A program made the position numbers and the translations under genes. A stretch of DNA of 64,000 nt from Trypanosoma brucei. Taxonomy: Eukaryota. Under the pieces are notes generated by a model. The model saw nothing but the letters and a program-made list of their open reading frames with translations. It was not told the origin of the DNA and did not search any database. The stretch lies in the NCBI GenBank assembly GCA_000002445.1, contig CP000068.1:64001-128000 (forward strand), in the 5' to 3' direction. Of the stretch, positions 1 to 46,902 are shown piece by piece; positions within the stretch are counted from its first letter, which is position 1; every line of letters starts with the position of its first letter.

Positions 1-847
1 CGGAGCTCAATTTCTGTTCCAGGATGTTGACGTTCTTCTCTCTATTAATTTTCCTGCAGAGCTCGTCAACCTTGAGACGGAAATTCCTCCAGTCAGCTTT
101 TAGCCATGCGTACATGGGCTTTTGAAGCCGCGGGCAACTCAGTGCATCTGTGTCGTCTCCAACGATAACGTCGAAAAATATGTGATGGTGATCGCTATCG
201 GGAGAATACAGCGATGTCCACGTGCACACTGTACAATTCCTTGACAGTGTCACATCAGGGGTAGACTCCCCGTGGTGGCGCGCGTACCTGGTGCACTCAC
301 CTGTGTTGCAGACCAGAAACTGGTTGTCAATGCACCACTGTGTGAGGGTTTCATCCTTGGTATTTGGTGGGATCGCGCGATCCCATGCCAACACGTGTGC
401 GTTAGCGTCTGCACCGATGAGCTGGGCACCGTCAGTTGTCAGAAGCGTATCTAGGTCAGTTGCCGTGAAGGTGTGTTTCAGTGGGATGTATGCCGACGTG
501 ACAGTCAGCGCCGTTCCACGTGCAAGGTGAATTGGTGCATGCACTTGTTCAATGCGACCACCAACGGCTATACCGGTCTCGACTGGTAGGTCCTCCTTCA
601 CTAGTATTGATACACCACCTCCTTTGCAGTTACGAGCTATTCCGTGATGTTGGTAGCCAGCAACGCTAAAGCAAGCCGCCTCTCCAGGCGTCATCCTTGT
701 CTCGCTCAACAGACAAAAGTTAATCCGCTCATCAACAAGGGTTTTGTGGAGTGCTAATCTCTTTCCTTGAGATAGCCCGGCGCAGTTCCACTGCATCCCG
801 CACAACGACGGGCCGGGATTCTCTTCCACATCACCGGACAGCAGCAT
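1..847 (-). CDS. ingi ORF, N-terminal part (partial; runs off the window). Start ATG is at 847-845. My own translation: MLLSGDVEENPGPSLCGMQWNCAGLSQGKRLALHKTLVDERINFCLLSETRMTPGEAACFSVAGYQHHGIARNCKGGGVSILVKEDL...SPDSDHHHIFFDV... The region has a 2A-like peptide followed by an AP-endonuclease domain.
   Basis: I translated the minus strand from the ATG at 847 myself. There are no stops down to position 1, and the ORF is missing from the supplied track presumably because it has no in-window stop. The DxExNPGP 2A consensus is at aa 6-13. The WNCxGL, LxETR and SDH motifs are typical of LINE APE domains. Confidence 0.75.
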   Translation of the reverse strand, partial: MLLSGDVEENPGPSLCGMQWNCAGLSQGKRLALHKTLVDERINFCLLSETRMTPGEAACFSVAGYQHHGIARNCKGGGVSILVKEDLPVETGIAVGGRIEQVHAPIHLARGTALTVTSAYIPLKHTFTATDLDTLLTTDGAQLIGADANAHVLAWDRAIPPNTKDETLTQWCIDNQFLVCNTGECTRYARHHGESTPDVTLSRNCTVCTWTSLYSPDSDHHHIFFDVIVGDDTDALSCPRLQKPMYAWLKADWRNFRLKVDELCRKINREKNVNILEQKLSS

Positions 848-1071
848 CTTAGTGCGGATGATACTGCTCATGGCACGCTGGCACGTGCACAAGGACCGAC
901 AAATGAAAAACGGTGTCCCAGCAAGACGCTGCTGATCCCTGTGCTGTATGATGCCGTAGCCGGAGCACAGCAGTGTTCCCCATGAAAGGAACGCTGCTGG
1001 CTCTTGGCTTCCCCCGATGATACGGGGTACTGGACCCTGGAACCACGTTGAGGCGGCCGGCATCACCAGGG
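1..1071 (-). mobile_element. ingi-type non-LTR (LINE-like) retrotransposon, 5' portion; the element continues past the window start. Its 5' terminus is at about 1071: the reverse complement of 1020-1071 reads CCCTGGTGATGCCGGCCGCCTCAACGTGGTTCCAGGGTCCAGTACCCCGTA.
   Basis: The reverse complement of 1000-1071 matches the conserved 5' end of trypanosome ingi/RIME (and L1Tc Pr77-like) elements as I recall them (CCCTGG...CCTCAACGTGG...CCAGGGTCCAGTACCCCGTATCATCGGGGG). An ORF with a 2A-like motif and AP-endonuclease motifs follows. Because coding sequence continues far beyond 250 bp, this is ingi rather than the 500-bp RIME. Confidence 0.8.
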
Positions 1072-1100
1072 AATGAAGTAAAAAATAATCCAAGACCATA

Positions 1101-1898
1101 TCATTTACCTATACCAGGTGTGCCAATAACAATATGTATCGGTGGTCTGTGAGCTGTCATTTCTACCCACCATGCTCTCAGCCTTTTTTCGACTTTATAC
1201 CACACGCGCATGATTTCACGACGGATATATACATGCTGAGATACTGCTTTGCGCCCCGTAGTGTAGTCCAATGCAAACCTGTTGTATGGCCAACCCTTCT
1301 CCGAAGTGAGAACAAAAATCTCCAAACCATTGGGTCTCTCCGGCACTTGTGCATCAACATTCGCAGGAAGAGGAGTTATATCCACCTCTTCTTCGGTCCA
1401 TATGCGCTGTGGTCTTCCGCAGAATACCTTCATTCCAAGTGGCTCTGCATCATAACCCGACATCACATAACTCCATTTCGCATCATAAATGGAATCGTAA
1501 GGACCTTCAACTTTGACATCACAAGCTGTTTGGGCAGCTCGTATCCTTGCTTCTTTGGCGGCCATCAATGCTGCATCCAGTTTTCCTCTCACTACGGGAC
1601 CAACAAATTCCCCGATTTGAGCAGTTGCATTCTCTTCCCATTGTTGCATGCCTCCAATTCCATTACGAGGCAGATAAATAACTGCCCTCAGTAATTGAAA
1701 CTCATCGATATCCCGTATTTCTTCAAGAATCCCTGTATAAACAACATATTCTTCCGGATCCATAACAAACTCAACCATTGACACGTTAGGGGTGCCTAGG
1801 GTTTCACCGATGTGTTGATTCAAAAATTCATGAAGTTTCATATCCTTCAAACCCGCATATTCTTCCAGCAACACATCTTTGACATTGCTTCCCAACAC
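1101..1898 (-). pseudogene. Truncated ORF (265 aa) ending ...HIVIGTPGIGK followed by a stop, immediately before the ingi 5' end. I interpret it as the N-terminal fragment of a retrotransposon hot spot (RHS)-family gene interrupted by the ingi insertion.
   Basis: The ORF terminates in the middle of a Walker-A (GxxGxGK[ST]) motif 29 bp from the ingi terminus. RHS genes are a trypanosome multigene family known for a P-loop motif and for a conserved retroelement insertion hot spot. I recognise only the architecture; I have not confirmed the family by alignment. Confidence 0.45.
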
Positions 1899-4800
1899 CC
1901 ATTTGGGACAATTGGTTTCCTTCCCCGAAAATTACAATGTGGGACTGTAACGGAAGATATTCCGATGAGCACTCCAGAGAGGCAGAGTGACGGAGAGAGG
2001 AGAAAAGAAATATGGTCTTGTACTGTACCGTCTCAGCGATCCACAAAGTGGGAGTGCAAAACAGCGTTTGAAAAACATTAACAACAGAATTGATAACCTT
2101 AAACTTAAAAAAATAGTAAATAGAAACAAGAGTTGTATAAGGTATAATAATAATATGATACTGCGTCGTCAAGTATCATTTGAAGAGATGTATGCACATG
2201 ACTAAACTTTGAAAGCCAACAACACAGTTCATCCACAGTGCTAATAGATTTCACTCACTACACCAAATAAAGATACAAACAGTTGAATCAAAGTAACAAG
2301 AACACATTATATATCATATCAACATAGGATTAAATGTGTAAGGGCGTCCAACCGCATACGCGATACGTAAATGTGACAGCAACCACTATATATACCGTAA
2401 CTAAACTGCCGCACAAGAATATACTTTATTCTTAATGAATATCCAGTCATTTACGACAGTTACTCGACATACGTGTAAACAATTTCTTGTAAATAGAATC
2501 CACATATGATAAATGGATACAATCCCCTTGAGGAGTGTTGGACATGTATTAATGGTAACATGACTCAAAGGGAACCCAGTACAATAACGGGCAGCGCACT
2601 TTCCATGGGATTCACATATCATACCCTGTTTAATTATAATGAAATCCAACACACATACACTACAGTACATAGAGCATTAATAGGAGTTTAACTCAATCAC
2701 AAGTTACGATAAATCGAAACAGTAAGCACAACGTGAAACTCAGTGAAGAATCTGTGAGGAAAGGAAAATACATAAATCAGTGACAATAATATACAAATAT
2801 GAAATATGAGTAAAACAATTCATGTAAATATACAGCAAAATCAACAACAGCATAGCTTACGGTATTACAATAATCGTTGTATTTTCATTGTCGTTTGAAT
2901 GAAGTAACTAACTGCAGAAACCCCTCCACCTACGTTGCTGTGAGGAGCAACTGTGGTAAAGGTCTGGTAAGAACTGTTGGTAGATCACTACTGCGCCCCA
3001 CATGTGCAGAATAATGTTGCTACAGCTTTCTACTATTATTAATGCATTTGCTCTCACCTCCATACGTGTCAACAAGCTCTGAGGTTGAAAATAAACTGCG
3101 GTGTATAAATGGTTCGTGTTTTCTCTTTGCCCAAATATTCATGGTAGAAAAATGAATAATACTGTGAGTGATATTAAATACAAACAAAATTGCGTTACTC
3201 TCCTTGTTAATATCAACGGTACACAAGGACATACCCTGTTACTCTCATGACGATCCATGAAGTAAGCAAAGTGTCTTTCATTATAACAAAGCGGAAAGAA
3301 AACTAAAAAAGAGAGATAAGTTCCCAAATATTTCCCACATGTTCGCCTTTCTTCCTATAGAAGAGCAACTAACTGAAGGAACACATGAATTTCTAAAATA
3401 AATAGAAGTATATATCTTTTTTTCTAGATGCAGCGTGAGTTTGCAGCACACACTCACTCACCATCACCGACATGTTTCTTACGCGCTCTCTACGCTCACA
3501 TTACACAACCAACTGAAAGCATTAATATACAAAAAAGGAAGCCTATCGCTATTGTATAAATTTTACGCCCTATGATGATGATAAGGAGAATTAACCGAGG
3601 CATATGTAATCCCAAGTCCCTTCCTCCACTCCGTTATTTAAGAAATTCTGATACTCTAAAATAACAAAACACAACAAAAATGTGCAACAGTACCAACGTA
3701 CGCACACCAGTCGAACACATTCCTTTAGAAGACCATATGCGCGTTCCCTCATAATTTCATTCTCATGGGATGCCGCATCCCATCTACAAAAGCAAACCAA
3801 AGAAATAAAACAGAAACATTACTATTTAGATTATTAATGTAAGTAGCAGTATCCATCCAATTTCGTTCATCAAGAAAAGACAGTATCTGGAGAACGTCAG
3901 TGCAAGTGTATCTTGTAAACCAAACAATTACTCATGATTTGCCTTGTCATTGAAACTTTGTGATATACAACGCCGATGGTAGAATAAAGGAGACACTATT
4001 AATGTGATGGAGTTATGCATGCGCCACTCCGACTGTTCACAAATAAATGCAAATATCACAGTCTCATTATTTTCCAAATATACCCAACAAATAGGAAGCA
4101 AGTATTTTCTAGAATATGTGAAATACACGTCACCGCATCCACAATATAATAAGCGAAAATGAGACTCCATTTTCAAAAGCAAACATACAATCATGACAAT
4201 ACCGAGCACCATTTCCCTCGTGTATCCAAAAGACTCTGATACATAAGAGAGCAATTCGTAAAAGATGTCTAGAATAATATGAGGAAGGAGAAAATAATGC
4301 TCAGAATTTCTGGTACTCAGCCTAATGGAAATGAATATGATTGACAAAAATGATTTATTTTCTTTTTTACAGAAAGAGAGAGAGAACAAGCTGAAACGAG
4401 AGCAAACATGTACGATCGTAACTCTCAAACGGGTTGAGGCATAAGCTTCCTTTGTATCAACAATTTGTGCCCAACATTTTTTACTCAGTGCACTTTTTTT
4501 TTTTTTTACGTGCATGCTTTAGTGAGACTTCATTTAGTCATCCAGCTGAAAAAGGGGGAACACTCCCAATCCAATCGTCGAACATTTCTCTGATGTGCTT
4601 TTCCATTTCCTCTTGCCTAATTGCTAGAACTCAGCTTTCCGTGATTTCTATTGCAGTTACCACCTCAATCCTACTGTTTGAAACCGCAGTCACGTCACCA
4701 GAAAAAGAAATCTTTAGTTTTATTTCCAAGTCCCGCTATGACGCTTTCAGCTGAGGAAGGCGACCATCTCTTCCCCATCTGAATTCGCGTATTTTATGTG

Positions 4801-6508
4801 GTAAGAATCTTGCACTTTGGCATCTAGTTATGAAAGGCCAATTTTTAATCGGATGCTCGGTCAGCACATTCGGTTTCTGTAACATAACAGATCCACTGCC
4901 ACAGTCCCATACATCTCTCACTCCACACTTTGTACCCTCGACGTTATGTAGTAACAAAAGCGCTTCAGACCACTCCATCATCACACAATCCCCCTAAGAA
5001 GAGGATGCACGAGAGGTTATAAGCAAGTGGAAATTAAACGGTTCCCCATTTACATTCCGAGAACTTTCCAGAAATCAAAAGAAATTCACTGATGGAGATT
5101 CCGTAGCGTTTGTGGAGTCCTGTAAGCCCTACTTCACTTCTAACCAGTATTATCGTGATATCTTAATTTCCGAGCAGATCCGCGCACTGCAGTTTATTGA
5201 ATTATGTGGAGTGAACTGCAAATTCAGTCATGAAGAGCGTTTCTGAAGGGTCGGTGGGCTTTTGAATGCGACTCATCAGGGGCGACGTGACCTCCTTAAA
5301 ATATCCACTGAGGAACTTAACTTTATTCAACTGTTAACTGCGATGACGACGTTAGTGGCGGCCGCCTGATGGGCGGTGGCTTTGGTGGCTGTATTCTCCT
5401 CATTTAAAAAAAAAGCTGTGAACCGTGTAGCAAAAAGCGTTCAAAAGAAATTTAAGACTAAGTTTGGAACTACCTGCGAGACTTATCCAGTTGAGCTCGG
5501 TGACGGCACCTTCGCCCGTCCCCCATGGAATGGTGCGTGGGGAAAGCTGTGAAAATGGCTTATGATGTCTGATCTTTCATGTTGTTTTTGTTTGGGGGGA
5601 GGGGTGGTCTTATTTTGTTTCTTATTGATTTTCATTACTTCAATTATTCTTTGGTTTTTTTCTTTCTGCAGTTGTTGTTCCTCAGTTGGTGTATTTCCAG
5701 CCTCGTTTTTTTTTTGGTTTTGCCACATAGTTACACTTCCCTATGTGAGCTACTGGAAACAAGCAAGATTAAAAAAAAAAAATTATTATTATTATTATTT
5801 CCGCAACGCATCCCAACTTGGGTGTACAGGTAAGACGTCATGATGTTCTTTGTTACTATTAAATATGGTTGTAATGCATTTGAAAACTTTTTTTTCTTTT
5901 TCAGAGTCTTCTTGTTGTTTTTTTTGGTTATTTGTTTTTTAATTTGTTTTGCATTTCCCCTTCCCCCTCCTCCACAACGTCTTTTCCGCACTGAGACGAT
6001 GGCTTGCGAAAGGAGCGGTAATTGCTTCTGTGCTGTCATGTAGTAGAAACGCATTTCCATTATTTGTTATTTACTGTTAGTTATTATAAGTTGTTTGTTT
6101 ATTATATTTTTTGTTTGTATGGGAGTCCATGCAATTCATTAACTCTTCTCTCTTAGTGTTGGTGTTGGGTTGAAAAATGTTTTGGATATTTCCTTTTTTT
6201 TCTTTTTTTATCGGAACAAATCAGTGAAAATAAAATATAACAGAGTTAGCATACGAAAGGGGTCTTTTATTGCTTCGATGTGCAATCATTCTTTTATGAC
6301 ACGTGTGAATTTTAAAAATGAAAGAAAAGAAATGCAACACTTCCCTTCTCTTATTTTAATGAAGAAAAGTCAAAATTAGAAATTATTTTTTCATCATTTT
6401 TCATTATTTGTCCATTGCGTCAGCGGTTAGTTCTTTTATGGAATTATGTTTTTTTATGTTGCCGGGCTCCGGCACCATTATGATTTCTCGTCGTTATTTC
6501 TTTATATT

Positions 6509-6511
<3 letters not shown>

Positions 6512-6539
<28 letters not shown>
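6512..6539. repeat. (AT)n microsatellite
   Basis: Read directly from the sequence. Confidence 0.95.
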
Positions 6540-6542
<3 letters not shown>

Positions 6543-8588
6543 TAAATATATAAACCTACACGCACATCGACGCGAAAGAAGAGCCAACAATGGCATTGCA
6601 TTTATGATGATGTGAGGAGAAGTGTCGATGTTTATTTGTTGAGACATTCGGAATATTTTGCTTATGGGCGAATTGTTTTCTTTTTTTCCCTCCTCTTTTT
6701 CGTCAAAAACAAAAAGAAAAGCTTCACATGCCCTATGAAGTTTATTTGAGGAGTTGTTAACGACAGTCGGGTGGAATGACTCCGTAGGGCACATAAGGCA
6801 AAAAAAAAAAGGAGGTAGAGGATATAATCAAGTGCCTCATATTCGGGGCACCGAGATGTCAAACGTCTACATATTAAAGTTCGAAACTGAGAGAAACAAA
6901 TATCAAATAACAATAATAATAATATTGGAAAGATGGCCGTTAATAGTTGCAAAAGTGTGAGAAATGGAGGACTGCGTTCCGTTAGTTGTTGAAAGGCATC
7001 GGTGAAGTTACGGCATTTATGCATATGGCAGCCACCAACGGCCGAAGTTACGCGGGACTGGAGCATGGGGAACAGGTCGCCACCGCCCAATACATTTTTG
7101 CAACCCGGACCTCGTTATTCCATCGACGAGTTGGCGCAGCTGGTTTCCCTCTCCGGGATTGTTTTGGGGTCATTCCTGTGCGCACCAGAATTGAATCCCC
7201 TACCAAACTAATTCCACAATAAAGCAACTTTGACTCTTGGCATATCCAGTCCTTGCGGCTTCGACTCGCCATGCGACTGCCGCTTCTCCTTTCCGGCAAT
7301 GCATCCGACAACAACACGATAACGCGGACCATGCAAAAATGAGGGGTCTTATGGGGGAAAGATAAGCTCCGGAAGCACCAACCGACCCACTTCCCGAAGG
7401 CACTCAATTTCCTCGACGCCTTTATAAAGAGAGACGAGAACACTTTTCTGCCAGTCTCTTTTGAGGGGATGGAGCACATGGCCAAATCCAGAGTTTCAGG
7501 GCCTGAACTCGAAAGTACAAAAACGTGTGAAACACCACATGTTTCGCTACTCTTGTCCCATTTATCGCAGACGAGCTTTTTCGGCACCGCAACGAAACAT
7601 GATATGGAGAGGTACACAACCCTTTATTCAAGTCCGAGCACCGATTCCGCTATAAACACAACATGATGAAGATCGTTATTTAGTCCAAATTGCCAAACGA
7701 TGATGAGTCGCGCAAAAAAAAAAGGGGAGGAGCCTTAAAACCGCGACACCGATAATCGCGGTGTATATTCAACTGAAAAGTTTTCAACAGACACAATCGC
7801 TTATTCCCCTCAATATACACAACTATGCTTCAATCCGATTAGCTAATCAACGTTTGCGACAAATGAACCAATGATTATCCCTACGAGCCCATGAAACAGT
7901 GGTCATAAAAAAAAAAAAACTAAACCCAAGGAAATAAAAGAAAATAAAAAGAAAAACAAACAGAAAGAGGGGAAACTGAAAAGGAAGGAGTCTCAAGAAA
8001 TAACACTACACACACATGCATTAACTCCCATGATGGGCAGGGGTGTAATATTGCCAACGAGCCTCATCGATCAACAAAATTCATTTCCCCAGAAACTTTA
8101 AGCCCTGCATTACTGCCAGAATTTGCAAAAAGAAAAATGTTATTACGCAAAACGATAGACCTTACAGCCACGCATGCGGAAAATTAAATGTTAGGAAGGG
8201 TAAGAGGTTTAAAAAAAAACGCATAGGAGAGGCCTTGAGCTGATTTCAATCAAAGTTTAAATGGCTCCTTTATTCGTCCTCCTCCAAACGTTTTTTATGG
8301 GAGGGCGAACCGTACCGTCACGACACGTTACAGCTTCAAGGCTGTTTTACTGAATGCACCGGGTCACACGCACTCTTTTTCCATCAAACGCTACGTAGTC
8401 TCTCTGTCCCTCCTCTTTTTCATTTTCTTTTTGCTCTCGTTTTTTTTTATTTTTCCCGTGCTTTCAGGACAGATACGAGCAAAAGAAGGAAAAGAAAAAA
8501 AAAGAGTTTGAAGACACATTCATTCATTCATTGCCACCGCATCCGTACCGACGGGGGCCTAACGAAAAGATTACGTTCAGTTATTGAT

Positions 8589-9551
8589 TCACATCTTTGT
8601 TTTGCGATGGGCATATGTTTCCGCGAAACGCTTCAGCAACCAATCCACAGCACGGACTGGTGGATATTTGGGGGGATTGCTTGGCGAATGGCAATGATCA
8701 AGGCATTTAATAACAGTATAAGGATTAGGCTCACAGAAAAATGGCATGGAGTAGCGATCAGTTGTGGTTAAGCGAACGCGATGCGGTGTTGAGCGGTAAC
8801 GGCCATTACTCCACATATTCATCATGTCCCCAATATTCACAACAAAACTTCCTTCAAGGGGTTCCACATCCACCCACTCATCTGACAGATTGCGCACCTG
8901 CAGTCCTCCCACCGAATCTTGGTAGAGTAATGTAATAATACCATAATCCGTATGCTCACCACACACGATGGGATAACGGGTCCCTTGCTTTTGTGGAGGA
9001 TAATGTAGCATACGGAACACACTCAAAGGTTCATCAAATTTGGTATCGAAAAAGTCTTTCTTTAAACCAATAGCGAGTGCGAGGGCACGAAGAATAACGA
9101 GGGCAAATTCCTGCATTTCGCGATAATGTCTGTTCATCAACTCTACCCAACCTTTCACTTGCGTGGGGTGATTGTTCGGTCCACGCAATGGCTTTCCAGC
9201 TGCAACATCGGGGTGATCCTCAGGGAGATGACAGCCCATATTAAATGTTTCTTTACAATCAAATGGTTTCGTTGGGTCAACATTCTCCGCATCGAGGCAT
9301 CCGTAACCGCGATGATGTTTGCTCTTTCGAATATCAACCTTAAGTTTCTCTTCCAATGGAAGCGAAAAAAAAGCCTTGGCCATTTCCATCAACTTTTCCG
9401 TTCGCTCACGGGGAATGGGATGACCCACAACAAGAAAAACACCCCACGTCCTACAGGCATGATCAATCTGTTTCGCAACATCCATCATCCCCTTTTCTCC
9501 ATCACAGAACAGAGGGCCGACATCAATAACTGGAATCGAGCCGTGAGCCAT
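8589..9551 (-). CDS. 2-oxoglutarate/Fe(II)-dependent dioxygenase family protein (isopenicillin-N-synthase-like / iron-ascorbate oxidoreductase-like), 320 aa
   Basis: The N-terminus MAHGSIPVIDVGPLF... resembles the characteristic 2OG-oxygenase N-terminal region. It has HxD...H-type iron-binding context (HTDYG...H) and an RxS-like 2OG-binding tail (NGRYRSTPHRV). The ORF is clean at 320 aa. Confidence 0.75.
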   Translation of the reverse strand: MAHGSIPVIDVGPLFCDGEKGMMDVAKQIDHACRTWGVFLVVGHPIPRERTEKLMEMAKAFFSLPLEEKLKVDIRKSKHHRGYGCLDAENVDPTKPFDCKETFNMGCHLPEDHPDVAAGKPLRGPNNHPTQVKGWVELMNRHYREMQEFALVILRALALAIGLKKDFFDTKFDEPLSVFRMLHYPPQKQGTRYPIVCGEHTDYGIITLLYQDSVGGLQVRNLSDEWVDVEPLEGSFVVNIGDMMNMWSNGRYRSTPHRVRLTTTDRYSMPFFCEPNPYTVIKCLDHCHSPSNPPKYPPVRAVDWLLKRFAETYAHRKTKM

Positions 9552-12125
9552 CGGTTACGTTTATTTATTTGCTCGTGTTCGCTTTTCTTTTTTTTTAAAA
9601 AATTTTGCTGGGGAGTACACCTCGATGCAATATTAATGATGGAAATAATGGTTATAATAATAATGATAATTTGTATGCGCTATGTGCCTTTTTTTTTTCC
9701 TTTTGCTTTGGTTGGGAACCCGAAAGTTACCCTCACGCATACATGCACCAATAAATACAACGATATATATAAAGTGAAAAGAATGAAGGAAGAAGTTAGA
9801 TAACAAACAGATGCAACTTAAGATGAGGAGACCCTTTGAAAACAATGTCGCATGAACTGCAGCTCCTTTGGATCGTAAAATAATTCCTGGACATCACACC
9901 TTATATAATTCCAAAACAGAGGGGAATGCACTAATCAGATTCTCTTAATTATGATTACACTGTAACGAAATTATATGTGCGTGTACTGTTGCAGTGGGGA
10001 ACATCTGTACAACATGCTTCCATTATGTCCAGACGTTTCCACCAGGATCTTGTTAACGAGATTATTTTTTGTTTTTGCGCTGATCTGCGAGGTGAAACAA
10101 GTCCAAACACAACAAAAACAAGCCCGTACAAATTCAGTAAATGCAATTTTCGTCTATCCACATTTCCTCGTTGTTGTTGTTGCTGTTGTTTTTAAATTCC
10201 CGATTCTTCACCCGCCTGAATGTTGCTGCTCAGTTTGTTTTTAAAACCCATTGAAAACCTCCCCAAACCCCCCGCCCCCCGGGCCCGCCCGATAGGAATT
10301 TTTGGTTTATCATACCTGCGATATAAGTAAAGAAACGAACCAACTTGACATCACGCCATCATCATAACAACTTTTGTTGGTTTTTTTCTATTATTTTACT
10401 TTTCCACCTTTATTTTATTTTATTTCCTTTCCTTTGTTGATGTTATCATGATGGAGAGAAGTGAAGCGGTTGTCCCAAATTCCTCTACGGGAAAGTTAAG
10501 GTATTAAGAACGCATTTAGAGAGATGGAAACAATTCGGCAGCAACAACAACAGCAACAACAACACACGTGCATACAAACCAGTGAAAGAAGACGTATCCA
10601 TTCATTCCTTATTGCTTCTTTTCCCCTCTTCATGATTTATTTGTTTATTTCTTCGTGGTATGTTGTGGCTCACAAAATCCCTCCTCCAAAAATGTCTGAG
10701 AGTTTACCCAAGAAAACCAACACATATGTATTCATGCAAAGACTGAGGTGAAGCTAAAAAGAAAAAGAAGAGATAACGCGACTTCTCGCACCTTTTCTCT
10801 CATACCGTAAATGTGTAAGCATACATGCATTCATATGCGTATCTTCATACGCGTTGATTAATTTGAAAATGAAAAGCCGGTAATAAGAATTTTCTTTTAA
10901 AGTATTATTACCATTTGTATTAATCTGAAGAAAAAACAAATGGGGTTGAGGGAAGGATAAAGAAGATAGGGAGGAGCGAAATCAAGAAGCAAAAAGGTAA
11001 TTGGAAAAAGCTGAGGGTGTGGAAAGGATATATTGACACAAAATGTGTATATACACATATACGTGAACGTATATATGATACGTAAAGGAGGAAAGGTGAA
11101 CACAATAACAATAACAGAAACTGAAAAGAAATACCGAAACTTCTCATTTCATCTCTTCCCCTTCCTCTCTTTTTTTTTTATTCACACCATCACCATTATT
11201 ATTTTGCACAGTGCTTTATTCCACTCGCACTGAAACGTTTGTTAAGCGGAAGATGAAAAAAGGAAAAAAGGGGCCTTCAAAGTAAAAAAAAAAAGTGGCA
11301 ATTCTGTGTTGAATAAATGCATCATTATTTATTTTACCCTTTGATTAGATTGCTTCACTCTTTTTACTTTTTACCATTGTGGGTCCGCTTATATTTACCC
11401 ACAGTATTTATTCATTTTCTTTTTTTTTTCAGCTTTCCAACTCCTTCTGCCATCCCCTCTCGTATCCCCCCCCCCAAAAAAAAAAAAGCGAAGTCGGGTA
11501 TTTGCGCAAACAAAACAAAACAACGGGTAACATTAAAATGAGGGCAAACAAACAAACAAACTCGAAAAGGAGTAAATATAAAGAAGGCGGGCCCAAGAAG
11601 AGCATATTCTCACGTACACATATTTACGAACTTGCAAGAAAGAGAAGAACTCTTTCCATTTTCTTATTCTTCTCTATATTTACCCTCCTCTAAGGTAAAA
11701 CATAACGCAGGCGTTCATTTTGTTATCGGTTACTATCCCGAAATGGTGTTGCTTAAAATGGCAATCCCGTAGCAATGATAATAATAATTATTATTATTAT
11801 TCGATATGCGTCTTTCCCTATTCCACTAAATCATTTTCGGCCACTTGCCATTACATTTAATTTCACCTCACCTCACCTCACTTCATCCATTCAGCAATAT
11901 TCACTCTCCCTCTTAAGTATAATTCGGTAGTTCAATTCTATTATTTTGTTTTCCCACACGTACACAACATTTCTGTGCTCTTTTCTGCTACGAATTGCAC
12001 CACGAAATCACGCAATGCCCCGCGCAGTGAAGGAAAGAAGTGAAATGAAGCGAAGTGAAGTAAGCGTCTACAATACAGCAGTTCCAGAAACATTTTCATT
12101 TATCCACTCACCACATCCTATGGTA

Positions 12126-13349
12126 TTACATTTTCACGGAATGGTATGGATCCGCATGAACAGGCTGCGACAGTTTGGGCTGCGCAACGGCAGCTGCAGA
12201 AGCTTCCTCAGGGGCTGCCTTTCGCCGACTTCGTATTAAGAAGAACACCAACACAAGGATCAGTATTGCCACAATTGGGGCGAAAATATACAAGAGCAGT
12301 AACATTATCCATCTCCGTTTCTTAGCGAACAGAGTACGCGCCTCCTCCAGATCCTGAAGATCGGTATTATTCACTCCATCCTCGAGGGAAGACGACCGAT
12401 GACCGCCAGACATCTCAATCAAAACATCGAGTGTCCGATTACTTATCCGTTCCCCTTCACTAATAATTTCAGAATGATTTTTCTCCTCCTGCAACCCCTT
12501 GTGGATTTTGTATACCAGCAGCAGTTGATTTTCGCAGATGAGCATATCTTTGTAAGACTTGTCCAACTCCCCCACAATTCCTACTACGTGGGACTTCGTA
12601 TCGTTGTAATGCGTCCCCCACTGGTCTAGTGGTGTGCAAGGTGGTTCTCCAGCGGTGCTGCAGTTCACCACCTTTTTGGGTTTTGAAGTTGTCCAATTTG
12701 ACTCAGCCTCAACCATTAGGGTGGAAATCCATTTTTCTTTTTCGTCAAGTGTTACGTTGGTGCATGAAATTTCCCCCTCTGGAGGGTCCAATGTGCTTGA
12801 AACGACACCTTCTTCACACTTACGGCCTCCTCTACAGTATGAACTCATAACCTCCTTAAGCCCAACCACAGGGTTGCCTCCCTCAGATGCTTCCGTGCCT
12901 TCGAGTGTCTTTTTTCCCGACTCCTTCGCTTTAACAGCCTTTTCCTTTATCGAAGCTTCCCTAGTTGTGGCGTTTTCGGGCATGTCTTTGATTTTCGTCT
13001 TGGCTCCATCACACAACTCTTTTATGCGCTTCTTCGTTCCATCAGGGTCATCAGAGTCTTTCCCCAGCATGCCATCAATATCATCAACGTACGCATCCAC
13101 CAACTCAGCATCTCGAGTGATATTCGCCGTATCTTCGGCCGCCAGTTCTACAAGGCGATCCGCCAGTGGGTTCACTATGTTTTTGGTGAGGACTGTCATA
13201 GCACACAATACATCAGCAGCTGCTCTGCTAAGTTTGTCGTCAGCCTCATTCGTCTGAGTTTCCGATGCTCTTGCCTTCCCCACATGCGAAAACACTGAAG
13301 CTGAGGATGCGATCAATACAACCGCAAGGCAAAAGGTGACACGTGCCAT
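12126..13349 (-). CDS. Type-I membrane glycoprotein, 407 aa. It has a signal peptide (MARVTFCLAVVLIASSASVFS), a charged cysteine-containing ectodomain with at least 9 N-x-S/T sequons, one C-terminal transmembrane helix (IMLLLLYIFAPIVAILILVLVFFLI) and a 35-aa cytoplasmic tail. Family unassigned; the architecture is like trypanosome invariant or expression-site-associated surface proteins.
   Basis: A long clean ORF with recognisable signal peptide, transmembrane helix and basic stop-transfer (RSRRK). The composition is typical of trypanosome surface proteins. Confidence 0.6.
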   Translation of the reverse strand: MARVTFCLAVVLIASSASVFSHVGKARASETQTNEADDKLSRAAADVLCAMTVLTKNIVNPLADRLVELAAEDTANITRDAELVDAYVDDIDGMLGKDSDDPDGTKKRIKELCDGAKTKIKDMPENATTREASIKEKAVKAKESGKKTLEGTEASEGGNPVVGLKEVMSSYCRGGRKCEEGVVSSTLDPPEGEISCTNVTLDEKEKWISTLMVEAESNWTTSKPKKVVNCSTAGEPPCTPLDQWGTHYNDTKSHVVGIVGELDKSYKDMLICENQLLLVYKIHKGLQEEKNHSEIISEGERISNRTLDVLIEMSGGHRSSSLEDGVNNTDLQDLEEARTLFAKKRRWIMLLLLYIFAPIVAILILVLVFFLIRSRRKAAPEEASAAAVAQPKLSQPVHADPYHSVKM

Positions 13350-13648
13350 CTTTCCCTTGCTCCGTTTATTTCCCTTTCCTTGTCTCTTGGACTTTTATTG
13401 GTATCCCTCCCCCTTTTGATGTCCGACACGTTATTTTCACTGATACTATTCAGCAACCTGTAACAATAGCAGCAACAAAGAAAAGTTATGCAGCAAGGGC
13501 TGATAGAATAGGGAAGAAAAGACATGTGGGAAACAGGGAAACGGAGCTAAAGAAATTATAGCGATGCTTCAACGTTAAACAGCATTGGGGGATAACCCGT
13601 TAACGAGGAAGAAGAAGGTAGTAGAAGTTTATTCCCAGAATAGTGGAA

Positions 13649-13669
13649 TATATATATATATATATATAT
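13649..13669. repeat. (TA)n microsatellite
   Basis: Read directly from the sequence. Confidence 0.95.
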
Positions 13670-15856
13670 GGACATATACCAAACAATCCAAGTCACTATT
13701 CACCCACATCAAGGGAATACATCCTTTTGAATAACGCTACGCAGAATCCTTAAGGGTTCCATGAAATTAATAGTCGGAGTGAAATGTAAGAAAGCATTTA
13801 TGCATCTGAAGGAATGAATCCAACAACTCATCAGCGATCATATACACAAACAAAGAACTAAAGTATTGACGGTAGTTTCATCATACTAGTGTGTAAGGAA
13901 CAGTAACATAGCGAAAGGAAGGCATTAGTATGATACTATCAAATTCTTTTATTGGCATGACGGGCATACACACGAGACACAACAGTTAATTTCCCCATGA
14001 ATGTGGTCAATGAAGCGGTTAAATCCCTCATCGTGAAATGTCACACCCAAAAATAGAAACTCGGCGACTACTTTAGATTCCCAACGCAAGATATCTTTCA
14101 ATAGGATTCACAGGTACACACAACAGCACTCAAACGACTGCAAAGGAATGCCATGAATAATCTCCCATACTCAATCAGCATTTCACTTATGATCCTTCAA
14201 TATGTTTTTACCATTCCAACACACACGCAAGCATATCACTTTCCCTTATGCGCTGTGTCTTGCACAACAGATGCTCGTCCCTAATAAATCAAGGGGGAGT
14301 ACAAATAGAAAATAAAAAGGGGGAGAGGAAGTGCTACACAGCTGAGACAGTTAGTCACTTGCACACGCCTGTTATATTGAATGTGCGATAAACAAATATG
14401 TGAATAAATGCATGGAGTTGAGTGCACATATTATGAAGATAGTAAATTCATAACAGAAAAAATTAAATAATAAAACAGAGTCGCACAAAGGAAAGCAACT
14501 GTTCTTTACTCTACAGCATCTACCGGCGATGTTGCTGTGCCGTAACGTGCGAATGTATGGAAACTAGTCGTTAGAACGGGAAATGCAGAAGAAACACGCA
14601 AATCTCCCGGAAGAAACAAAATCGATGAAACAAAATAAAAAGTTAAAAGGGTAAGAAAAAGGGCAGAAACCCAATAAAAATAGAAAAAAAAAGCCTAACG
14701 GAGAAAACTTAGAAGCCAAGAAAGGAAAACAAAATAGCTCACATTCGGCTCGTATGTACATGTGTCAGTAAAAGATATGCGTCATGCTAATAAAATGTTA
14801 AATACCTGAAGGGAGAAAAAAAAAGTCACCCAAAACTTGAAATCAACATACAAACGTCAAATAACAGCAACGGGAACGCCTCCACTCACAGTTCTTTTCA
14901 CTTGTTAATGTCTGTGGCTCATCATCATCACCATCTCATGAGTAGGGCGAGAAGGAAATTAATATCAAATAAATGGAATTATGTTTATGAATAAAAATAT
15001 AAATACATATATGTCATAATGATTAAAATCATATGCAGCGATGGGAAAAAGAGTGACATCGAGTATCATTAGGCACAAAACGTTAGGCATAATATTTAAA
15101 TATGTATGCACATTGTAAAGTGGAGAGGAGGAAAGTGAGAGAGAATTGTAAACACCATGGCGTCAACGCACCCACAAACAAATAACAGCAATAATTAAAA
15201 CAACAGAAGTGTGGACGAAATAGTCGGCAGTGTTACAACCGTTGAAAAAGGAGAGAAAAGAAGAAAAAAAATAAGAGCACAGAAAAAAAAACAGGAAAAA
15301 GTGAAGGGAAATGTTTCGTGCACACGTCCCATTACGTTCGAATCTTCTCTTTCCTTTTTGGCTATTTCTTAAACACAACATAAAAGTCTCAAGGGGGAAA
15401 CACAACATCAAATATATATATATATATGTATGCACATATGTTTATAAAGGAAATAATATTAATTCGTCAACATAACTCCTCATACCACAGAACTAGCATT
15501 AGTAATAACAATAATAACAGATCATATAAACACGCGTAAAAGAAAAAAAGAAAGCTGAACTGAGTGAGAGAAAATGAGACAGCGGCAGACCAAAGGGAGG
15601 AGCAAAAAAAAGAAAAAAAAACAAATATAAAATGTTTTTGTATCACATATTCCACAGTTCACATACCTCGCTGCCACCATTTCATTTCAGTAATACCACA
15701 CGCAGCAGTGGTTATTATACACACAACCAGAGGCGGAGAAATTTATATGGGTGACGAAACCAAAATAAAGACATAAGGCAGAAAAAATATAAACACCAAT
15801 GTCTGCCTCCGAAGCAACACCAAGAGGAAGTATCCAACTTCTTTACACTTATCACA

Positions 15857-18800
15857 TCAATTAGCATCATTTTCCGTCATTCCGTTATTTACTTCCCGCC
15901 CACTGGACACCGGCACACGAGAACATTGCTTTGGGGAGGCGTCGGAAAGGTACGGATTGCAGGAAATGATGATGAGGGAAGAGCCACTTTGGGTAGTAAC
16001 ACCTGACGATGCGGACATCCCGCGGGCTCCGTGTTCCGCAATGTGTCCAACCTTCACTGCAATACGGCGAATAACTTCTTCACAATACGCATCGTCCCAC
16101 ACACGCCCCTTCCGCCGTGGTAAAGAAACATTCCAACGCTCGCAGTATGGAACCAATAGTCGCTCTCGCTGTGGAGCTTTGAAGGTACTGAGTAAGGAAT
16201 GCAGGGCATCTGAAATAGTTTGTGCCGATCCACTCAGCTCCATGTGGGTGGAACTATGTTCACTAGCAGAGGTACTAGTAGGGTCCTCACTCTCTTCGAA
16301 AGAGAAATCACGATCCAAGCGGAGCCCAGCGAATGCACGGCCGGGAACGGCATTCAATTGGTACATTACAATAGGCTCAGGAACACCACGCAACGCAACA
16401 GGTCCAAGCGAGGTCGCATCAAGTTGGTCACGCTCCTCAGTGCTCAGTGACATGTACGCCGCATACGTCAGCAGCACTTGCCCACCATTTGTCACACTTT
16501 CTGTGCGCGCAGCCATGTTTGGTGTGCGTCCGTAGTAGTCGTATCCTTTTGTTACTTCATCATGTCGGATATCACATAACCCGGTGTGGATTCCGATTCT
16601 TACACGCAGCCCATTCCACAACTGGCGGTAAACCTCGGGATCCAGACGTGCACTTGGTGGAATATAGTGATCATCATCCTCAGCTTTCTGCATCTCGGAA
16701 TTGCGGTAGAAATCATCGAAAACAGTTGTCCCCCAACAGTGTTGCAGGAATGATCGCTGAATGTCACTCGCGAGTTCCACAGCGGTGGATGTACTGCGGC
16801 AGGCAATCATAAAGGAGTCCCCAACGGTCTTCACCTCGTAACAACCATACTGCATGATGAGTGAACGGATCATAGTGTGATGAGCCAACACGGCATCGGG
16901 CATCAGTTCCGGGTGAGTAGACCACTGCGCAGTGCTGCTTTCGATGTCCGTGAAGATGAGAGTTACAGGATCTGTTGGTTCCCTCGGTGCTCTGTTGTTG
17001 TCTCGAGAATTAAACACAAACAAGCACAGAAGCACACACAATGCAATAGCAAGTGCAACAAAGAAAACAGAACCAACAATTATACCGGCAAGTTGTGAAG
17101 GACTAAGGGAAGACCCATCCATTACAGCATACTCCAAAGATGGCGTCACGCCACGACTCAGTACAGGCACACGGGGGTCTAGTACCCGAGACATCGACCA
17201 CACAGAAATGTTTCCCGCCCCAAAATTAGTCTCGCAACGGTTAGCCGCCGTTACACGTCCCTTAACACACTCAACATCACTGTACGGTCCGTAGTGCATG
17301 TCATCCACACGAATGTTTGATTCTGTGTAAAAAAAATCAACTAACAACGAGGGGCTTATCCTCTTCATGCGTGGAACGATGCTTCGAAGCAGACGCGCAG
17401 TGGCAAAGCCCCGCAACCTCAGCGGTGTCCATGTAGATTCACGGGGGTTGTAGGCATGAAACATTGCAACTGTATCCGATTCCGTATTTTTATCGGCCCA
17501 GTGTGGTAGATTCGTCGCGAACACAAGTCGTGAGGCGCTTACAACTGCCGCAGGGGTCGCATTAAATGCTTCCACAAACTCATCATACAATTGAGCGACT
17601 TCGGAGAAGAGAACATACACGCGTCTATCATTTCGAGATTGGAGATACTGTGCAATCGCATGGGCATCTGGAGGTGTGAGGCCGATGGCCACAACATCCC
17701 CACTGCTTGGTAGATGGTCCACCAGAGTGTCACTCTCTTTAAGTAACAACATTGACTTAAGTGCCACATCAAATGTCATTAGCGATTTGTTGAGTACATC
17801 ACCAATTACTTCCGCCCTTTTACTTCGAATAGCGGCAGACACGGCACCGGTAGAGGCATTTGAGAGGTGCATAGCAATCACGTACAATTGTTGCCGAACC
17901 GTAGGCGAGAGCAGTAACACATTTCTACGGAACTTACCCACTATGGGGCTGGCCGCCAAAGGATTGATGAAGGTGACATTTGGAAGCCGGAGTGCATCCC
18001 TCGTCACTCCACCAAAGACAGCGGATACTATCCTGTTGTCCACCAATTGCGCGAGATCACCTGCCACTTCACTCAGCTTCCTCCTAAAGGGGTGAAAAAA
18101 GAGTCGATCATTCTCGAAACTGCCATCAGCGGGGACAGATGATGCACCTTCGTACCATCTCCTGGCGGAACGCTCGGTAATGTAACTATCCACAATCAGA
18201 ATGAAAACACCATATAGTGGGGCATACACCTTCACATTTGCACTCGAACACTGTGATACACCCCACATCAAGAAACCATTTATTACGGGGTACATACGAA
18301 ACCCATCCACGACTTCCTTCATGTAAACAGCGCTTCCACCCTGATTGCAGTTGCACATAGCACCCTGCATGGACGCAAACTCGCCGCACTCATTACCATA
18401 GTCACCCACGACAAGGTCATCTACAACGTAACGACGCTGGCGGTACAGAGAGTCCATAAAGGCCGTGCGGTCCGTCAACACATCAGTACTGTGTAGTGCC
18501 TGCGAAAGGATCTCACCAGTGAGCCATCCAGTCATCATCAGATCAGAAATGGCCTCGTCGGTACTAAAGTGTGGGGGTTTCGAAAAGCCACCCCATTCAC
18601 TATTGGATTTTAAATGGTTATCCATCTCCTCCCGAAACCGCCGGACAGACGCAAGGGTTAGTAAATTCGAAGGAGGAATTGTGCCCGTGATGATTAATTG
18701 ACCATCGTTCAGAGACACATTGGAAGCATACAAAGCGTCACGCCAAGTTCTTATTAGAGGGCCTTGTGATGTCGACGGAGCCAAAACATACATCTGTCTC

Positions 18801-42043: not shown

Positions 42044-42633
42044 CCGTTAAAACTTATCTGTCACCCTCCTCTGATCACCACTTCCTCAGCTTGTCAGTCT
42101 CAACCTCACGTTACCTTGGCCGTAGAAATATGCAATCAACTACAGTCAAATATCCAAGAGAAAATAAGAAAGGGAAGGGAATCGATAGAAACGACCAAAG
42201 AGTAAAAATATGCGCGATTGAGCAAAGGAAATAATATGCGTATCCAATAGCGGATTTGTTGCAGTTCACCCGAACATGGACAACCTCCACGGCAGTCTTT
42301 CATTACACCCTTCATAGTAGCGCAAGGAATGTATGAATACCCTTAACACATGAAATAAGCAATACGTATGAAAAAAGGCATCAGCACTGGTATCCGCAGC
42401 TACCAATGCGGCCCTACCTCAAACCGGTAGTATGTGGGAAAAGGGTAATAACCTTGAGATGAGCTGCAAGGAACTGGTCAGACCGAAACATTACAAGCAA
42501 CGGTATAAAAAGCAAGAAACGAAAACATATAAAAAGCACCCTTATATCACTTATAGCAACCGATTTCAATTCCAAAATCATACACACAAATGCCTATACC
42601 TGTTCCTTCGTGTTCGGGCACCTGTGATAGTGT
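42044..42633 (-). repeat. Conserved ISG75 intergenic/5'-flank repeat (~590 bp) carrying the polypyrimidine tract and 5'UTR. Copies lie at 42044-42633, 44206-44801, 46374-46790, 48562-48850 (partial), 57149-57423 (partial, plus orientation) and 58993-59582 (plus orientation).
   Basis: The copies are near-identical. For example 42037-42240 vs 44199-44400 vs 46367-46570 vs 48561-48760 match the reverse complement of 57230-57430 and 59390-59590. Confidence 0.85.
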
Positions 42634-46373: not shown

Positions 46374-46902
46374 CCGTTAAAACTTATCTGTCACCCTCCT
46401 CTGATCACCACTTCCTCAGCTTGTCAGTCTCAACCTCACGTTACCTTGGCCGTAGAAATATGCAATCAACTACAGTCAAATATCCAAGAGAAAATAAGAA
46501 AGGGAAGGGAATCGATAGAAACGACCAAAGAGTAAAAATATGCGCGATTGAGCAAAGGAAATAATATGCGTATCCAATAGCGGATTTGTTGCAGTTCACC
46601 CGAACATGGACAACCTCCACGGCGGTCTTTCATTACACCCTTCATAGTAGCGCAAGGAATGTATGAATACCCTTAACACATGAAATAAGCAATACGTATG
46701 AAAAAAGGCATCAGCACTGGTATCCGCAGCTACCAATGCGGCCCTACCTCAAACCGGTAGTATGTGGGAAAAGGGTTGTAGTTGTAAAGTTTTCTGTAAA
46801 ATTCCTGAAATGTGACAAAAGATTGTGAAAAGACGAAACCGGCAGCAGATGGGGGAAGGGGGAAGGGAGCGGCGTTGTCAAGTGCGACGAAGATTTTTTA
46901 CG

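What the first reader, a model, noticed from the sequence alone, without database searches (positions are those of the whole stretch)
1..1900. ingi retroelement inserted exactly at the Walker-A motif of a truncated RHS-like gene
The minus-strand ORF 1898-1101 ends ...GTPGIGK then TGA, and 29 bp later comes the 5' terminus of an ingi element (CCCTGG... at about 1071). The ingi 5' UTR stays in the same reading frame as the host ORF (the 849-1046 ORF is in frame with 1101-1898). This is the signature described for retrotransposon-hot-spot (RHS) pseudogenes in T. brucei, where retroelements insert in frame at one conserved position. Here the junction, a possible target-site duplication, and the N-terminal RHS fragment can all be read directly.
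Basis: partly seen in the sequence, partly recalled or inferred. Interest (0 to 1): 0.55.

Follow-up and report, generated by a model that had tools for sequence, protein, structure and literature searches.

The report
RHS pseudogene split by ingi retrotransposon
This is an ordinary, already well-described feature of African trypanosome genomes: a decayed copy of a "retrotransposon hot spot" (RHS) gene interrupted by an ingi mobile element at the family's usual insertion point, a few codons after its nucleotide-binding motif.

Summary
The minus-strand ORF 1898-1101 is the N-terminal part of an RHS protein (Pfam RHS_N 2e-35, DUF7578 8e-15). It ends GTPGIGK-TGA. The 5' end of an ingi non-LTR retrotransposon (CCCTGG) starts at 1071, 29 nt after the stop.

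The orthologous T. equiperdum locus (98.2% identical over 11.85 kb) extends past the window's left edge. It shows a 5255-bp ingi, a poly(A) tail, a short direct repeat and the collinear RHS P-loop/C-terminal half.

Four corrections:
1. The element lies about 10 codons downstream of the Walker-A motif, at the same homologous nucleotide as a canonical RIME-bearing RHS pseudogene, not exactly at the motif.
2. The TGA is a point mutation private to the window. All relatives have TCA or TCG (Ser).
3. The original RHS frame runs into the ingi coding frame itself.
4. The flanking repeat is 9 nt (8/9), or an exact 12 nt if 5 nt of microhomology are counted.

The copy is a divergent lone RHS, at most 60% identical to intact paralogs. 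The phenomenon is already known and interest is low.

The parts
1072..1919 (-). 5' half of an RHS pseudogene. It comprises the N-terminal domains, the Walker-A motif and about 9 further codons, up to the retroelement junction.
   Evidence: Pfam RHS_N at 2.1e-35 and DUF7578 at 7.7e-15 on ORF 1898-1101. tblastn places RHS proteins P0002 and P0003 on 1907-1089 and 1919-1041. The product is 99% identical to the T. equiperdum protein named 'Retrotransposon hot spot protein', P0001.
1680..1850 (-). DUF7578 domain, the N-terminal module found in many RHS proteins.
   Evidence: Pfam PF24466, residues 17-73 of the 265-aa ORF, E=7.7e-15.
1164..1499 (-). RHS_N domain.
   Evidence: Pfam PF20445, residues 134-245, E=2.1e-35. 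This part is 78% identical to T. brucei RHS P0035.
1101..1124 (-). Walker-A (P-loop) motif GTPGIGK, with the final Ser codon mutated to TGA (1103-1101).
   Evidence: Sequence read. The ortholog and four paralogs have TCA or TCG (Ser) at this codon.
1080..1085 (-). T6 run carrying one extra T relative to intact paralogs (T5), giving a +1 frameshift just upstream of the junction.
   Evidence: Alignment A1 shows GGATTATTTTTTACTTCATT here against GGATCA-TTTTTACTTCATT in intact RHS genes of T. b. gambiense and T. equiperdum. The extra T is present in both the window and L001.
1072..1080 (-). Upstream copy of the target-site duplication, TACTTCATT. The exact 12-nt repeat CTTCATTCCCTG spans 1078-1067 if the first 5 nt of ingi are counted.
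   Evidence: In the ortholog the poly(A) tail is followed by TGCTTCATTCCCTG. The 12-nt repeat was reached in 2 of 20000 shuffles, and the flank-only exact match is 7 nt.
1..1071 (-). First 1071 nt of an ingi non-LTR retrotransposon. The rest lies beyond the window's left edge.
   Evidence: 99.0% identical to nt 1-1071 of the 5255-bp element in the T. equiperdum ortholog. That element has RIME-like 247-bp ends, AP endonuclease, reverse transcriptase and RNase H domains, and a poly(A) tail.
825..1071 (-). RIME-A-equivalent 5' segment of ingi. Its first ~77 nt (995-1071) correspond to the Pr77 hallmark.
   Evidence: 97.2% identical to nt 1-247 of a 502-bp RIME in T. b. gambiense locus L002. The Pr77 hallmark is described in PMC4035085 and PMC1874656. 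It has no Rfam family match.
1..871 (-). Start of the ingi ORF: ATG at 871-869, 2A-like motif DVEENPGP at 832-809, and the AP-endonuclease domain. The frame is open upstream to 1108, across the junction.
   Evidence: Pfam Exo_endo_phos_2 at 1e-10 and Exo_endo_phos at 1.3e-6. The frame has 369 codons and no stop, reading VNDMVLDYFLLHSLVMPAASTW...MSSIIRTKMLLSGDVEENPGP.
849..1046 (-). It is in phase with ORF 1898-1101 but is not the ingi coding frame.
   Evidence: In T. equiperdum, where the TGA is TCA, this frame is annotated as part of a 330-aa chimeric protein, P0001.

Best explanation
The left end of the window holds the 5' half of a decayed member of the trypanosome RHS (retrotransposon hot spot) gene family. 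A full-length ingi non-LTR retrotransposon interrupts it in sense orientation at the family's conserved hot spot.

Mechanism. These steps are inferred from the anatomy and from established knowledge of ingi/L1Tc-clade elements.
- The ingi-encoded AP-type endonuclease nicked the bottom strand of the RHS coding sequence a few codons after the P-loop.
- Reverse transcription was primed from that nick (target-primed reverse transcription).
- A second nick 9-14 nt away on the other strand produced the short flanking duplication.
- At the 5' junction, the first 5 nt of ingi (CCCTG) coincide with the target's own Ser-Leu codons (TCC CTG). The exact joint is therefore ambiguous over 5 nt (microhomology).

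As first inserted, the RHS reading frame ran straight into the ingi coding frame, as it does in a canonical RIME-bearing RHS pseudogene.

The copy then decayed further:
- an extra T in a T-run just before the junction, shared with T. equiperdum;
- a 1-nt deletion about 100 nt after the junction, seen in T. equiperdum;
- in the window's genome only, a TCA-to-TGA nonsense change in the Walker-A Ser codon.

The insertion is shared by two T. brucei-group genomes, so it is old and inherited, not a recent event. The copy is a non-functional RHS relic.
For: Shown directly:
- RHS identity of the ORF.
- ingi identity of 1-1071: RIME-A match, 2A-like motif and AP endonuclease.
- An orthologous locus, L001 from T. 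equiperdum CM010676.1, collinear with window 1-11853 at 98.2%.
- In L001 the element is 5255 bp, its ends match the two halves of a 502-bp RIME, and it carries reverse transcriptase, RNase H and a poly(A) tail.
- Right after the poly(A) tail comes TGCTTCATTCCCTG..., followed by a 461-aa ORF with the Pfam RHSP P-loop domain at 3e-48.
- Removing ingi and one repeat copy gives DNA collinear with intact T. brucei RHS proteins over residues 48-665 of 685.
- With two single-base repairs, that DNA encodes an open 778-aa protein with DUF7578, RHS_N and a complete RHSP domain.
- Alignment A1 places the junction at the same homologous nucleotide (codon Y/H plus 1 nt) as the RIME junction in a canonical T. 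b. gambiense RHS pseudogene. Intact paralogs show the empty site ...TTTTTACTTCATT|CCCTACTTCAC.
- The ingi coding frame is open across the junction and includes the RHS codons LDYFLLHSL.

From the literature:
- RHS genes carry a retroelement hot spot just downstream of the ATP/GTP-binding motif, and most copies are pseudogenes (PMC6393297, and PMC7563717 citing Bringaud 2002).
- ingi is 5.25 kb, made of 4.75 kb flanked by RIME halves (PMC3447711).
Against: - The 3' junction and the RHS 3' half were read in the T. equiperdum ortholog, not in the window's own genome, because the window ends inside ingi.
- The flanking repeat is imperfect under the simplest reading: TACTTCATT against TGCTTCATT, 8 of 9. 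It is shorter than the 12 nt seen at the canonical comparator. The flank-only 7-nt exact match is not rare when positions are left free (1233 of 20000 shuffles), although it abuts both element ends exactly.
- The TG variant of the downstream copy occurs in a different RHS paralog. This leaves room for recombination between copies.
- The endonuclease and TPRT steps are inferred, not shown.
- The original description of the hot spot (Bringaud et al. 2002) could not be read here. The comparison with the canonical site therefore rests on one comparator locus that I read myself, plus secondary citations.
Confidence: 0.93

Rival explanations
1. The locus is a recombinant. Its 5' RHS half and 3' RHS half come from two different ingi-bearing RHS pseudogenes, joined by homologous recombination or gene conversion within or near the retroelement. 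It would then not be a single gene hit once by ingi.
For: The two copies of the flanking repeat differ (TA against TG), and the TG variant is the state of another RHS paralog at that position. Secondary literature reports that RHS pseudogenes can arise by crossing-over upstream of the insertion site (PMC7563717, citing Bringaud 2002).
Against: Both halves have the same nearest relatives: the T. b. gambiense chr11 857-aa RHS and P0035. After excision they form one continuous gene, collinear with those proteins, needing only two single-base repairs. One point mutation in an old duplication explains the mismatch equally well.
Confidence: 0.08
2. This is the same event with a different joint. The second-strand nick lay 5 nt further downstream, and the ingi copy lacks its first 5 nt. 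The 5' end was joined through CCCTG microhomology with the target, giving a 12-nt exact duplication (14-nt with one mismatch) instead of a 9-nt duplication with a full-length element.
For: The exact 12-nt direct repeat CTTCATTCCCTG spans the flank/element boundary (2 of 20000 shuffles). 12 nt is the duplication length seen at the canonical comparator. Intact paralogs show that CCCT at this position belongs to the target.
Against: With a full-length element, the junction falls on exactly the same homologous nucleotide as the canonical RIME junction, which is the simpler reading. The canonical target has AAACT at this position, so microhomology is not a general feature of the hot spot. The sequence alone cannot separate the two readings.
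Confidence: 0.3
3. The chimeric ORF, an RHS N-terminal region fused to the ingi 5' region, is a functional truncated RHS-like protein and not debris. In T. equiperdum it is annotated as a 330-aa protein.
For: The ORF is continuous in T. equiperdum and was called as a protein, P0001.
Against: In the window the same ORF is cut by a TGA inside the P-loop. The frame continuity depends on a frameshift. The tail is translated ingi 5' sequence in a non-coding frame. No ATG precedes the DUF7578 region. Two closely related genomes differ by a nonsense change, which is the pattern of neutral decay.
Confidence: 0.03

Closest known systems
RHS (retrotransposon hot spot) pseudogenes of Trypanosoma brucei (Bringaud et al. 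2002; Florini et al. 2019, PMC6393297)
   Same: - The domain set is DUF7578, RHS_N and the RHSP P-loop.
- The retroelement lies in sense orientation just downstream of the ATP/GTP-binding motif.
- The junction is at the same homologous nucleotide as in a canonical RIME-bearing copy.
- The original RHS frame is continuous with the retroelement coding frame.
- The RHS 3' half is collinear beyond the element.
   Different: - The copy is divergent: 60% identical to the nearest intact paralog found, and 48-55% to the ~690-aa RHS proteins. It could not be assigned to RHS1-6.
- It is the only RHS piece in the 64-kb window. It sits next to 2OG-oxygenase, ISG-like and adenylate cyclase genes, not within an RHS cluster.
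- It carries extra private lesions: +1 T, a nonsense codon in the P-loop, and a -1 deletion in the ortholog.
ingi / RIME non-LTR retrotransposons (ingi/L1Tc clade)
   Same: - The CCCTGG... 5' end (Pr77 hallmark region) is present.
- The 247-bp ends are shared with RIME.
- The element is 5255 bp long.
[quoted passage not shown]
- It is flanked by a short target-site duplication.
   Different: - Only the first 1071 nt lie in the window.
- The orthologous copy has its coding region split into two ORFs (780 and 910 codons) instead of the single 1657-aa ORF reported for potentially active copies (PMC3447711).
- The first 80 nt differ from the RIME comparator at three positions.
LINE-1-type 5' junction microhomology (general non-LTR retrotransposon biology; from my own knowledge)
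   Same: 5 nt (CCCTG) are shared between the element's 5' end and the target DNA at the joint.
   Different: Here the shared bases are simply the Ser-Leu codons of this RHS lineage. The canonical RHS target lacks them, so this may be coincidence and not a mechanism.

Membership tests
RHS protein family (Pfam RHS_N PF20445, RHSP PF07999, DUF7578 PF24466) | RHS_N domain | tested here: met
   E=2.1e-35, residues 134-245 of ORF 1898-1101.
RHS protein family (Pfam RHS_N PF20445, RHSP PF07999, DUF7578 PF24466) | ATP/GTP-binding (Walker-A) motif GxxxxGK[ST] in the conserved central region | tested here: met
   GTPGIGK at 1124-1104. The Ser codon is TGA in the window but TCA or TCG in the ortholog and paralogs, so the motif is present but mutated.
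RHS protein family (Pfam RHS_N PF20445, RHSP PF07999, DUF7578 PF24466) | RHSP P-loop/C-terminal domain collinear with the N-terminal part | tested here: met
   This lies outside the window. In the ortholog L001, the ORF 16153-17538 matches RHSP at 3e-48, and the repaired gene covers RHSP positions 1-311 of 312 at 1e-69.
RHS protein family (Pfam RHS_N PF20445, RHSP PF07999, DUF7578 PF24466) | Retroelement inserted at the family's conserved hot spot, downstream of the P-loop | tested here: met
   Alignment A1 with a canonical RIME-bearing RHS pseudogene and three intact RHS genes puts the junction at the same homologous nucleotide.
RHS protein family (Pfam RHS_N PF20445, RHSP PF07999, DUF7578 PF24466) | Assignment to a subfamily (RHS1-RHS7) by the C-terminal domain | tested here: inconclusive
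   The nearest relatives are the T. b. gambiense chr11 857-aa RHS (60%), P0035, named RHS4 by one source (55%), and ~690-aa RHS proteins (48-49%). No curated RHS1-7 reference set was available.
ingi non-LTR retrotransposon | Conserved 5' end shared with RIME (Pr77 hallmark region) | tested here: met
   Window 1071-825 is 97.2% identical to nt 1-247 of a RIME. No Rfam model exists or matches for the ribozyme, and an MFE fold was uninformative.
ingi non-LTR retrotransposon | About 5.2 kb long, made of a ~4.7-kb core flanked by the two halves of RIME | tested here: met
   The ortholog element is 5255 bp, and RIME nt 1-247 and 255-501 match its first and last 247 bp. In the window only the 5' 1071 nt can be seen.
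ingi non-LTR retrotransposon | ORF encoding AP endonuclease, reverse transcriptase and RNase H | tested here: met
   The AP endonuclease is in the window. RVT_1 (1e-35) and RNase_H (2.7e-10) are in the ortholog.
ingi non-LTR retrotransposon | Poly(A) tail and target-site duplication | tested here: met
   In the ortholog an A9 tail is followed by TGCTTCATT, against TACTTCATT upstream. There is an exact 12-nt repeat if CCCTG is included. The duplication is imperfect or ambiguous in length.
ingi non-LTR retrotransposon | Retrotransposition competence (a single intact 1657-aa ORF) | tested here: not met
   In the ortholog the coding region is split into 780- and 910-codon ORFs. This cannot be tested in the window beyond the first 290 codons, which are open.

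The most novel reading that the evidence does not exclude
In this RHS lineage (...FLLHSLLHF), the codons right after the nick site (TCC CTN) mimic the ingi 5' terminus (CCCTG). The hot spot might then be defined partly by microhomology-assisted joining of the element's 5' end, and not only by the endonuclease's nick preference. If so, retention of the site to the nucleotide in RHS genes as little as ~50% identical would reflect a selected or self-reinforcing landing pad.
Probability: 0.07. Interest if true: 0.3.

Novelty: already known. Interest (0 to 1): 0.1.

Why it matters
It matters little beyond annotation. RHS pseudogenes carrying ingi or RIME at a fixed position have been described since 2002 and are annotated routinely in T. 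brucei-group genomes.

The locus is a clean teaching example. It shows how an old insertion can be dissected into separate events: the insertion itself, shared lesions and strain-private lesions. It also shows that an annotated 'Retrotransposon hot spot protein' of 330 aa in T. equiperdum is a frameshift-generated chimera of RHS and ingi 5' sequence.

It adds one data point that the hot spot is used at the same nucleotide in a divergent RHS lineage.

Tried and rejected
- **Original paper.** Bringaud et al. 2002 could not be read under its DOI or two PMC ids. Statements about it rest on secondary citations (PMC6393297, PMC7563717) and on my own reading of a canonical comparator locus. A literature search for an explicit 'in frame' statement found nothing useful.
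- **Ribozyme.** An Rfam search of 1-2500 at E<=1 and of the whole window at gathering thresholds found no HDV-like ribozyme or any other RNA family. An MFE fold of the first 80 nt of ingi was no better than shuffles (z=-0.49). This says nothing about a pseudoknotted ribozyme.
- **Source genome.** Exact-sequence look-ups of three window ORFs and of two TREU927 RHS proteins found nothing. The window's own left flank and strain could therefore not be obtained.
- **Element type.** I considered that the element might be a RIME or a degenerate DIRE. I rejected this because the window sequence continues past nt 247 into an open endonuclease-coding frame, and the ortholog element is 5255 bp with reverse transcriptase and RNase H.
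- **Assembly artefact.** I rejected this because the same structure, including the extra T, is present in an independent T. equiperdum assembly.
- **Other copies.** tRNA and tandem-repeat scans of the window were empty. No second RHS, ingi or RIME copy exists in the window.


Full report
**1. The observation**

On the minus strand, ORF 1898-1101 (265 codons, GTG as first codon) ends ...RPPIHIVIGTPGIGK, followed by TGA at 1103-1101. Twenty-nine bases later, at 1071, the sequence CCCTGGTGATGCCGGCCGCCTCAACGTGG... begins.

Translating straight through from 1898 shows that the TGA is the only stop before the TAA at 851-849.

**2. What the two pieces are**

The 265-aa product matches Pfam RHS_N (PF20445, E=2.1e-35) and DUF7578 (PF24466, 7.7e-15).

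- Its best database match is a T. equiperdum protein named 'Retrotransposon hot spot protein' (99% identity).
- The other hits are RHS proteins of T. b. gambiense, T. vivax, T. congolense, T. cruzi and others at 50% identity and below.

The sequence from 1071 leftwards is ingi.

- It is 97.2% identical to the first 247 nt of a 502-bp RIME found in a T. b. gambiense locus. Beyond that point, where a RIME would switch to its 3' half, it continues.
- From an ATG at 871-869 it encodes MSSIIRTKMLLSGDVEENPGP..., with a 2A-like motif at 832-809, followed by an AP-endonuclease domain (Pfam Exo_endo_phos_2 at 1e-10).
- This matches published descriptions of ingi as a 5.25-kb element whose 4.75-kb core is flanked by RIME halves (PMC3447711), with a conserved 77-nt 5' hallmark (PMC4035085, PMC1874656).

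**3. Beyond the window: the orthologous locus**

The window stops inside ingi, so I used the T. equiperdum contig that encodes the 99% match (L001, CM010676.1). L001 positions 1-11841 align to window 11853-1 at 98.2%. L001 then continues about 9 kb past the window's left edge.

In L001:
- The element runs from 10771 to 16025 (5255 bp).
- Its first and last 247 bp match the two halves of the RIME.
- It encodes AP endonuclease plus reverse transcriptase, and RNase H. The coding region is split into two ORFs.
- It ends in A9.
- Immediately after the poly(A) comes TGCTTCATTCCCTGCTTCACTTCAATGATGG..., then a 461-codon ORF that matches the Pfam RHSP P-loop domain at 3.2e-48.

I removed ingi and one copy of the flanking repeat. 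The resulting DNA is collinear with intact T. brucei RHS proteins, covering P0035 residues 48-665 of 685 and P0037 residues 48-682 of 691. After two single-base repairs it encodes an open 778-aa protein with DUF7578, RHS_N and a complete RHSP domain (positions 1-311 of 312, E=1e-69).

**4. Where exactly the element sits**

I read a canonical comparator, a T. b. gambiense chr11 RHS pseudogene carrying a RIME (L002).

- Its 5' junction is ...GGT AAA TCG TTT TCA GTG GGA TCC CTA CTG TTA TAC A|CCCTGGCG...
- The flanking duplication is TACTGTTATACA upstream and TTCTGTTATACA downstream.
- The RHS frame continues into the retroelement's own coding frame (...LLLY-T-LAMPATSTWCQGPVPRIIGG...SSIIRAKMLLSGDV).

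Three intact RHS genes give the empty site: GGA TCA TTT TTA CTT CAT T|CC CTA CTT CAC, encoding GSFLLHSLLHF.

In the alignment of all of these (A1), the window's junction (...GGA TTA TTT TTT ACT TCA TT|CCCTGG) falls on the same homologous nucleotide as the canonical one. That position is the first base after the Tyr/His codon, nine codons past the Walker-A Ser.

Secondary literature places the hot spot a few codons downstream of the ATP/GTP-binding motif (PMC7563717, citing Bringaud 2002). 'Exactly at the Walker-A motif' overstates this. The element is in the known hot spot about 10 codons downstream.

**5. The stop codon and the frame**

The TGA is not a product of the insertion. The ortholog has TCA, and the four paralogous copies read here have TCA or TCG (Ser, the last residue of GxxxxGK[ST]). 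It is a C-to-G change private to the window's genome.

Relative to all intact paralogs, the window and L001 share one extra T in the T-run at 1085-1080 (T6 versus T5). That +1 frameshift is what puts the upstream RHS frame in phase with the 65-codon ORF 1046-849, which is not the ingi coding frame.

The original RHS frame survives in the few codons between the extra T and the junction. It is the frame that continues into the ingi ORF. That frame is open for 369 codons, from 1108 to position 1, and reads VNDMVLDYFLLHSL-VMPAASTW...MSSIIRTKMLLSGDVEENPGP. This is the same arrangement as at the canonical comparator.

In T. equiperdum the absence of the TGA lets the frameshifted chimera be annotated as a 330-aa protein. 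In L001 a second, compensating 1-nt deletion lies about 100 nt downstream of the junction.

**6. The flanking duplication**

Upstream of CCCTGG the flank ends TACTTCATT. Downstream of the poly(A) it starts TGCTTCATT, an 8-of-9 match with 7 exact bases abutting both ends.

The target itself continues CCCTG, the Ser-Leu codons, which read CCCTA in intact paralogs. The exact direct repeat is therefore 12 nt (CTTCATTCCCTG). It was reached in 2 of 20000 shuffles.

The joint is thus ambiguous over 5 nt. Either there is a 9-nt duplication with a complete ingi at the canonical nucleotide, or a 12-14-nt duplication with 5 nt of microhomology. The sequence cannot decide between these. The canonical target lacks this homology, so I treat it as coincidental.

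The TA/TG mismatch also leaves a small chance that the two halves were brought together by recombination between RHS pseudogenes. Both halves nevertheless share the same nearest relatives.

**7. Relationship to known RHS genes**

The repaired protein has these identities:

| Relative | Identity |
|---|---|
| T. b. gambiense chr11 857-aa RHS | 60% |
| P0035 (TREU927 chr1, called RHS4 by one source) | 55% |
| ~690-aa RHS proteins of chr7 | 48-49% |

It is a divergent lone copy and I could not assign it to RHS1-6 or RHS7.

It is the only RHS, ingi or RIME sequence in the 64-kb window. The neighbouring genes are a 2OG-Fe(II) oxygenase, an ISG65/75-family gene, two receptor-type adenylate cyclases and arrays of ISG-like genes.

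**8. Verdict**

The mechanism is inferred from the anatomy and from the known biology of the clade. It is target-primed reverse transcription by the ingi endonuclease and reverse transcriptase at a preferred site in RHS coding sequence, followed by neutral decay.

The insertion is inherited, since two T. brucei-group genomes share it. The phenomenon has been known since 2002, and about two thirds of T. brucei RHS genes are such pseudogenes (PMC6393297). Novelty: already known. Interest: low.

Noticed in passing
L001 10001-10993 (ortholog of window ~1841-849, minus strand): The T. equiperdum assembly annotates a 330-aa 'Retrotransposon hot spot protein' (P0001). It is in fact a chimera of the RHS N-terminal region and ingi 5' sequence read in a non-coding frame, made possible by the +1 T frameshift. 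This is probably an annotation artefact, not a real protein.
   Followed up: yes
L001 ~13020-13055: The orthologous ingi has its coding region split into two overlapping ORFs (10710-13052 and 13022-15754) instead of one 1657-aa ORF. This is either a real frameshift, making it a dead copy, or an assembly error.
   Followed up: no
window 40475-48561 (-) and 57424-61151 (+): Six ISG65/75-family genes of ~522-552 aa form two arrays in opposite orientation: four on the minus strand and two on the plus strand. Copies are 80-96% identical in a mosaic pattern, with 5' parts 95-96% and 3' ends ~80%, which suggests gene conversion. The 48.6-57.4 kb gap between the arrays looks like a divergent strand-switch region.
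   Followed up: partly
window 15857-19567 (-) and 21265-24888 (-): Two tandem receptor-type adenylate cyclase genes (1236 and 1207 aa) have segmental identity ranging from 93% to 99.5%, again a mosaic suggestive of gene conversion.
   Followed up: partly
window 33653-35116 (+): A 487-aa ORF has an N-terminal hydrophobic signal-like sequence and many N-x-S/T sites. It has no Pfam match and lies on the opposite strand to its neighbours.
   Followed up: no
window 1932-1934 (minus strand): A TAA in the window corresponds to a Tyr codon in T. equiperdum just upstream of the RHS-homologous region. In both genomes no ATG precedes the DUF7578 region, so the pseudogene also seems to lack its original start.
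   Followed up: partly
window 8589-9551 (-) and 12126-13349 (-): A 2OG-Fe(II) oxygenase gene (DIOX_N plus 2OG-FeII_Oxy) and a shorter 407-aa ISG65/75-family gene lie between the RHS pseudogene and the adenylate cyclases. The RHS/ingi relic therefore sits at the distal end of a run of minus-strand genes, not within an RHS cluster.
   Followed up: no
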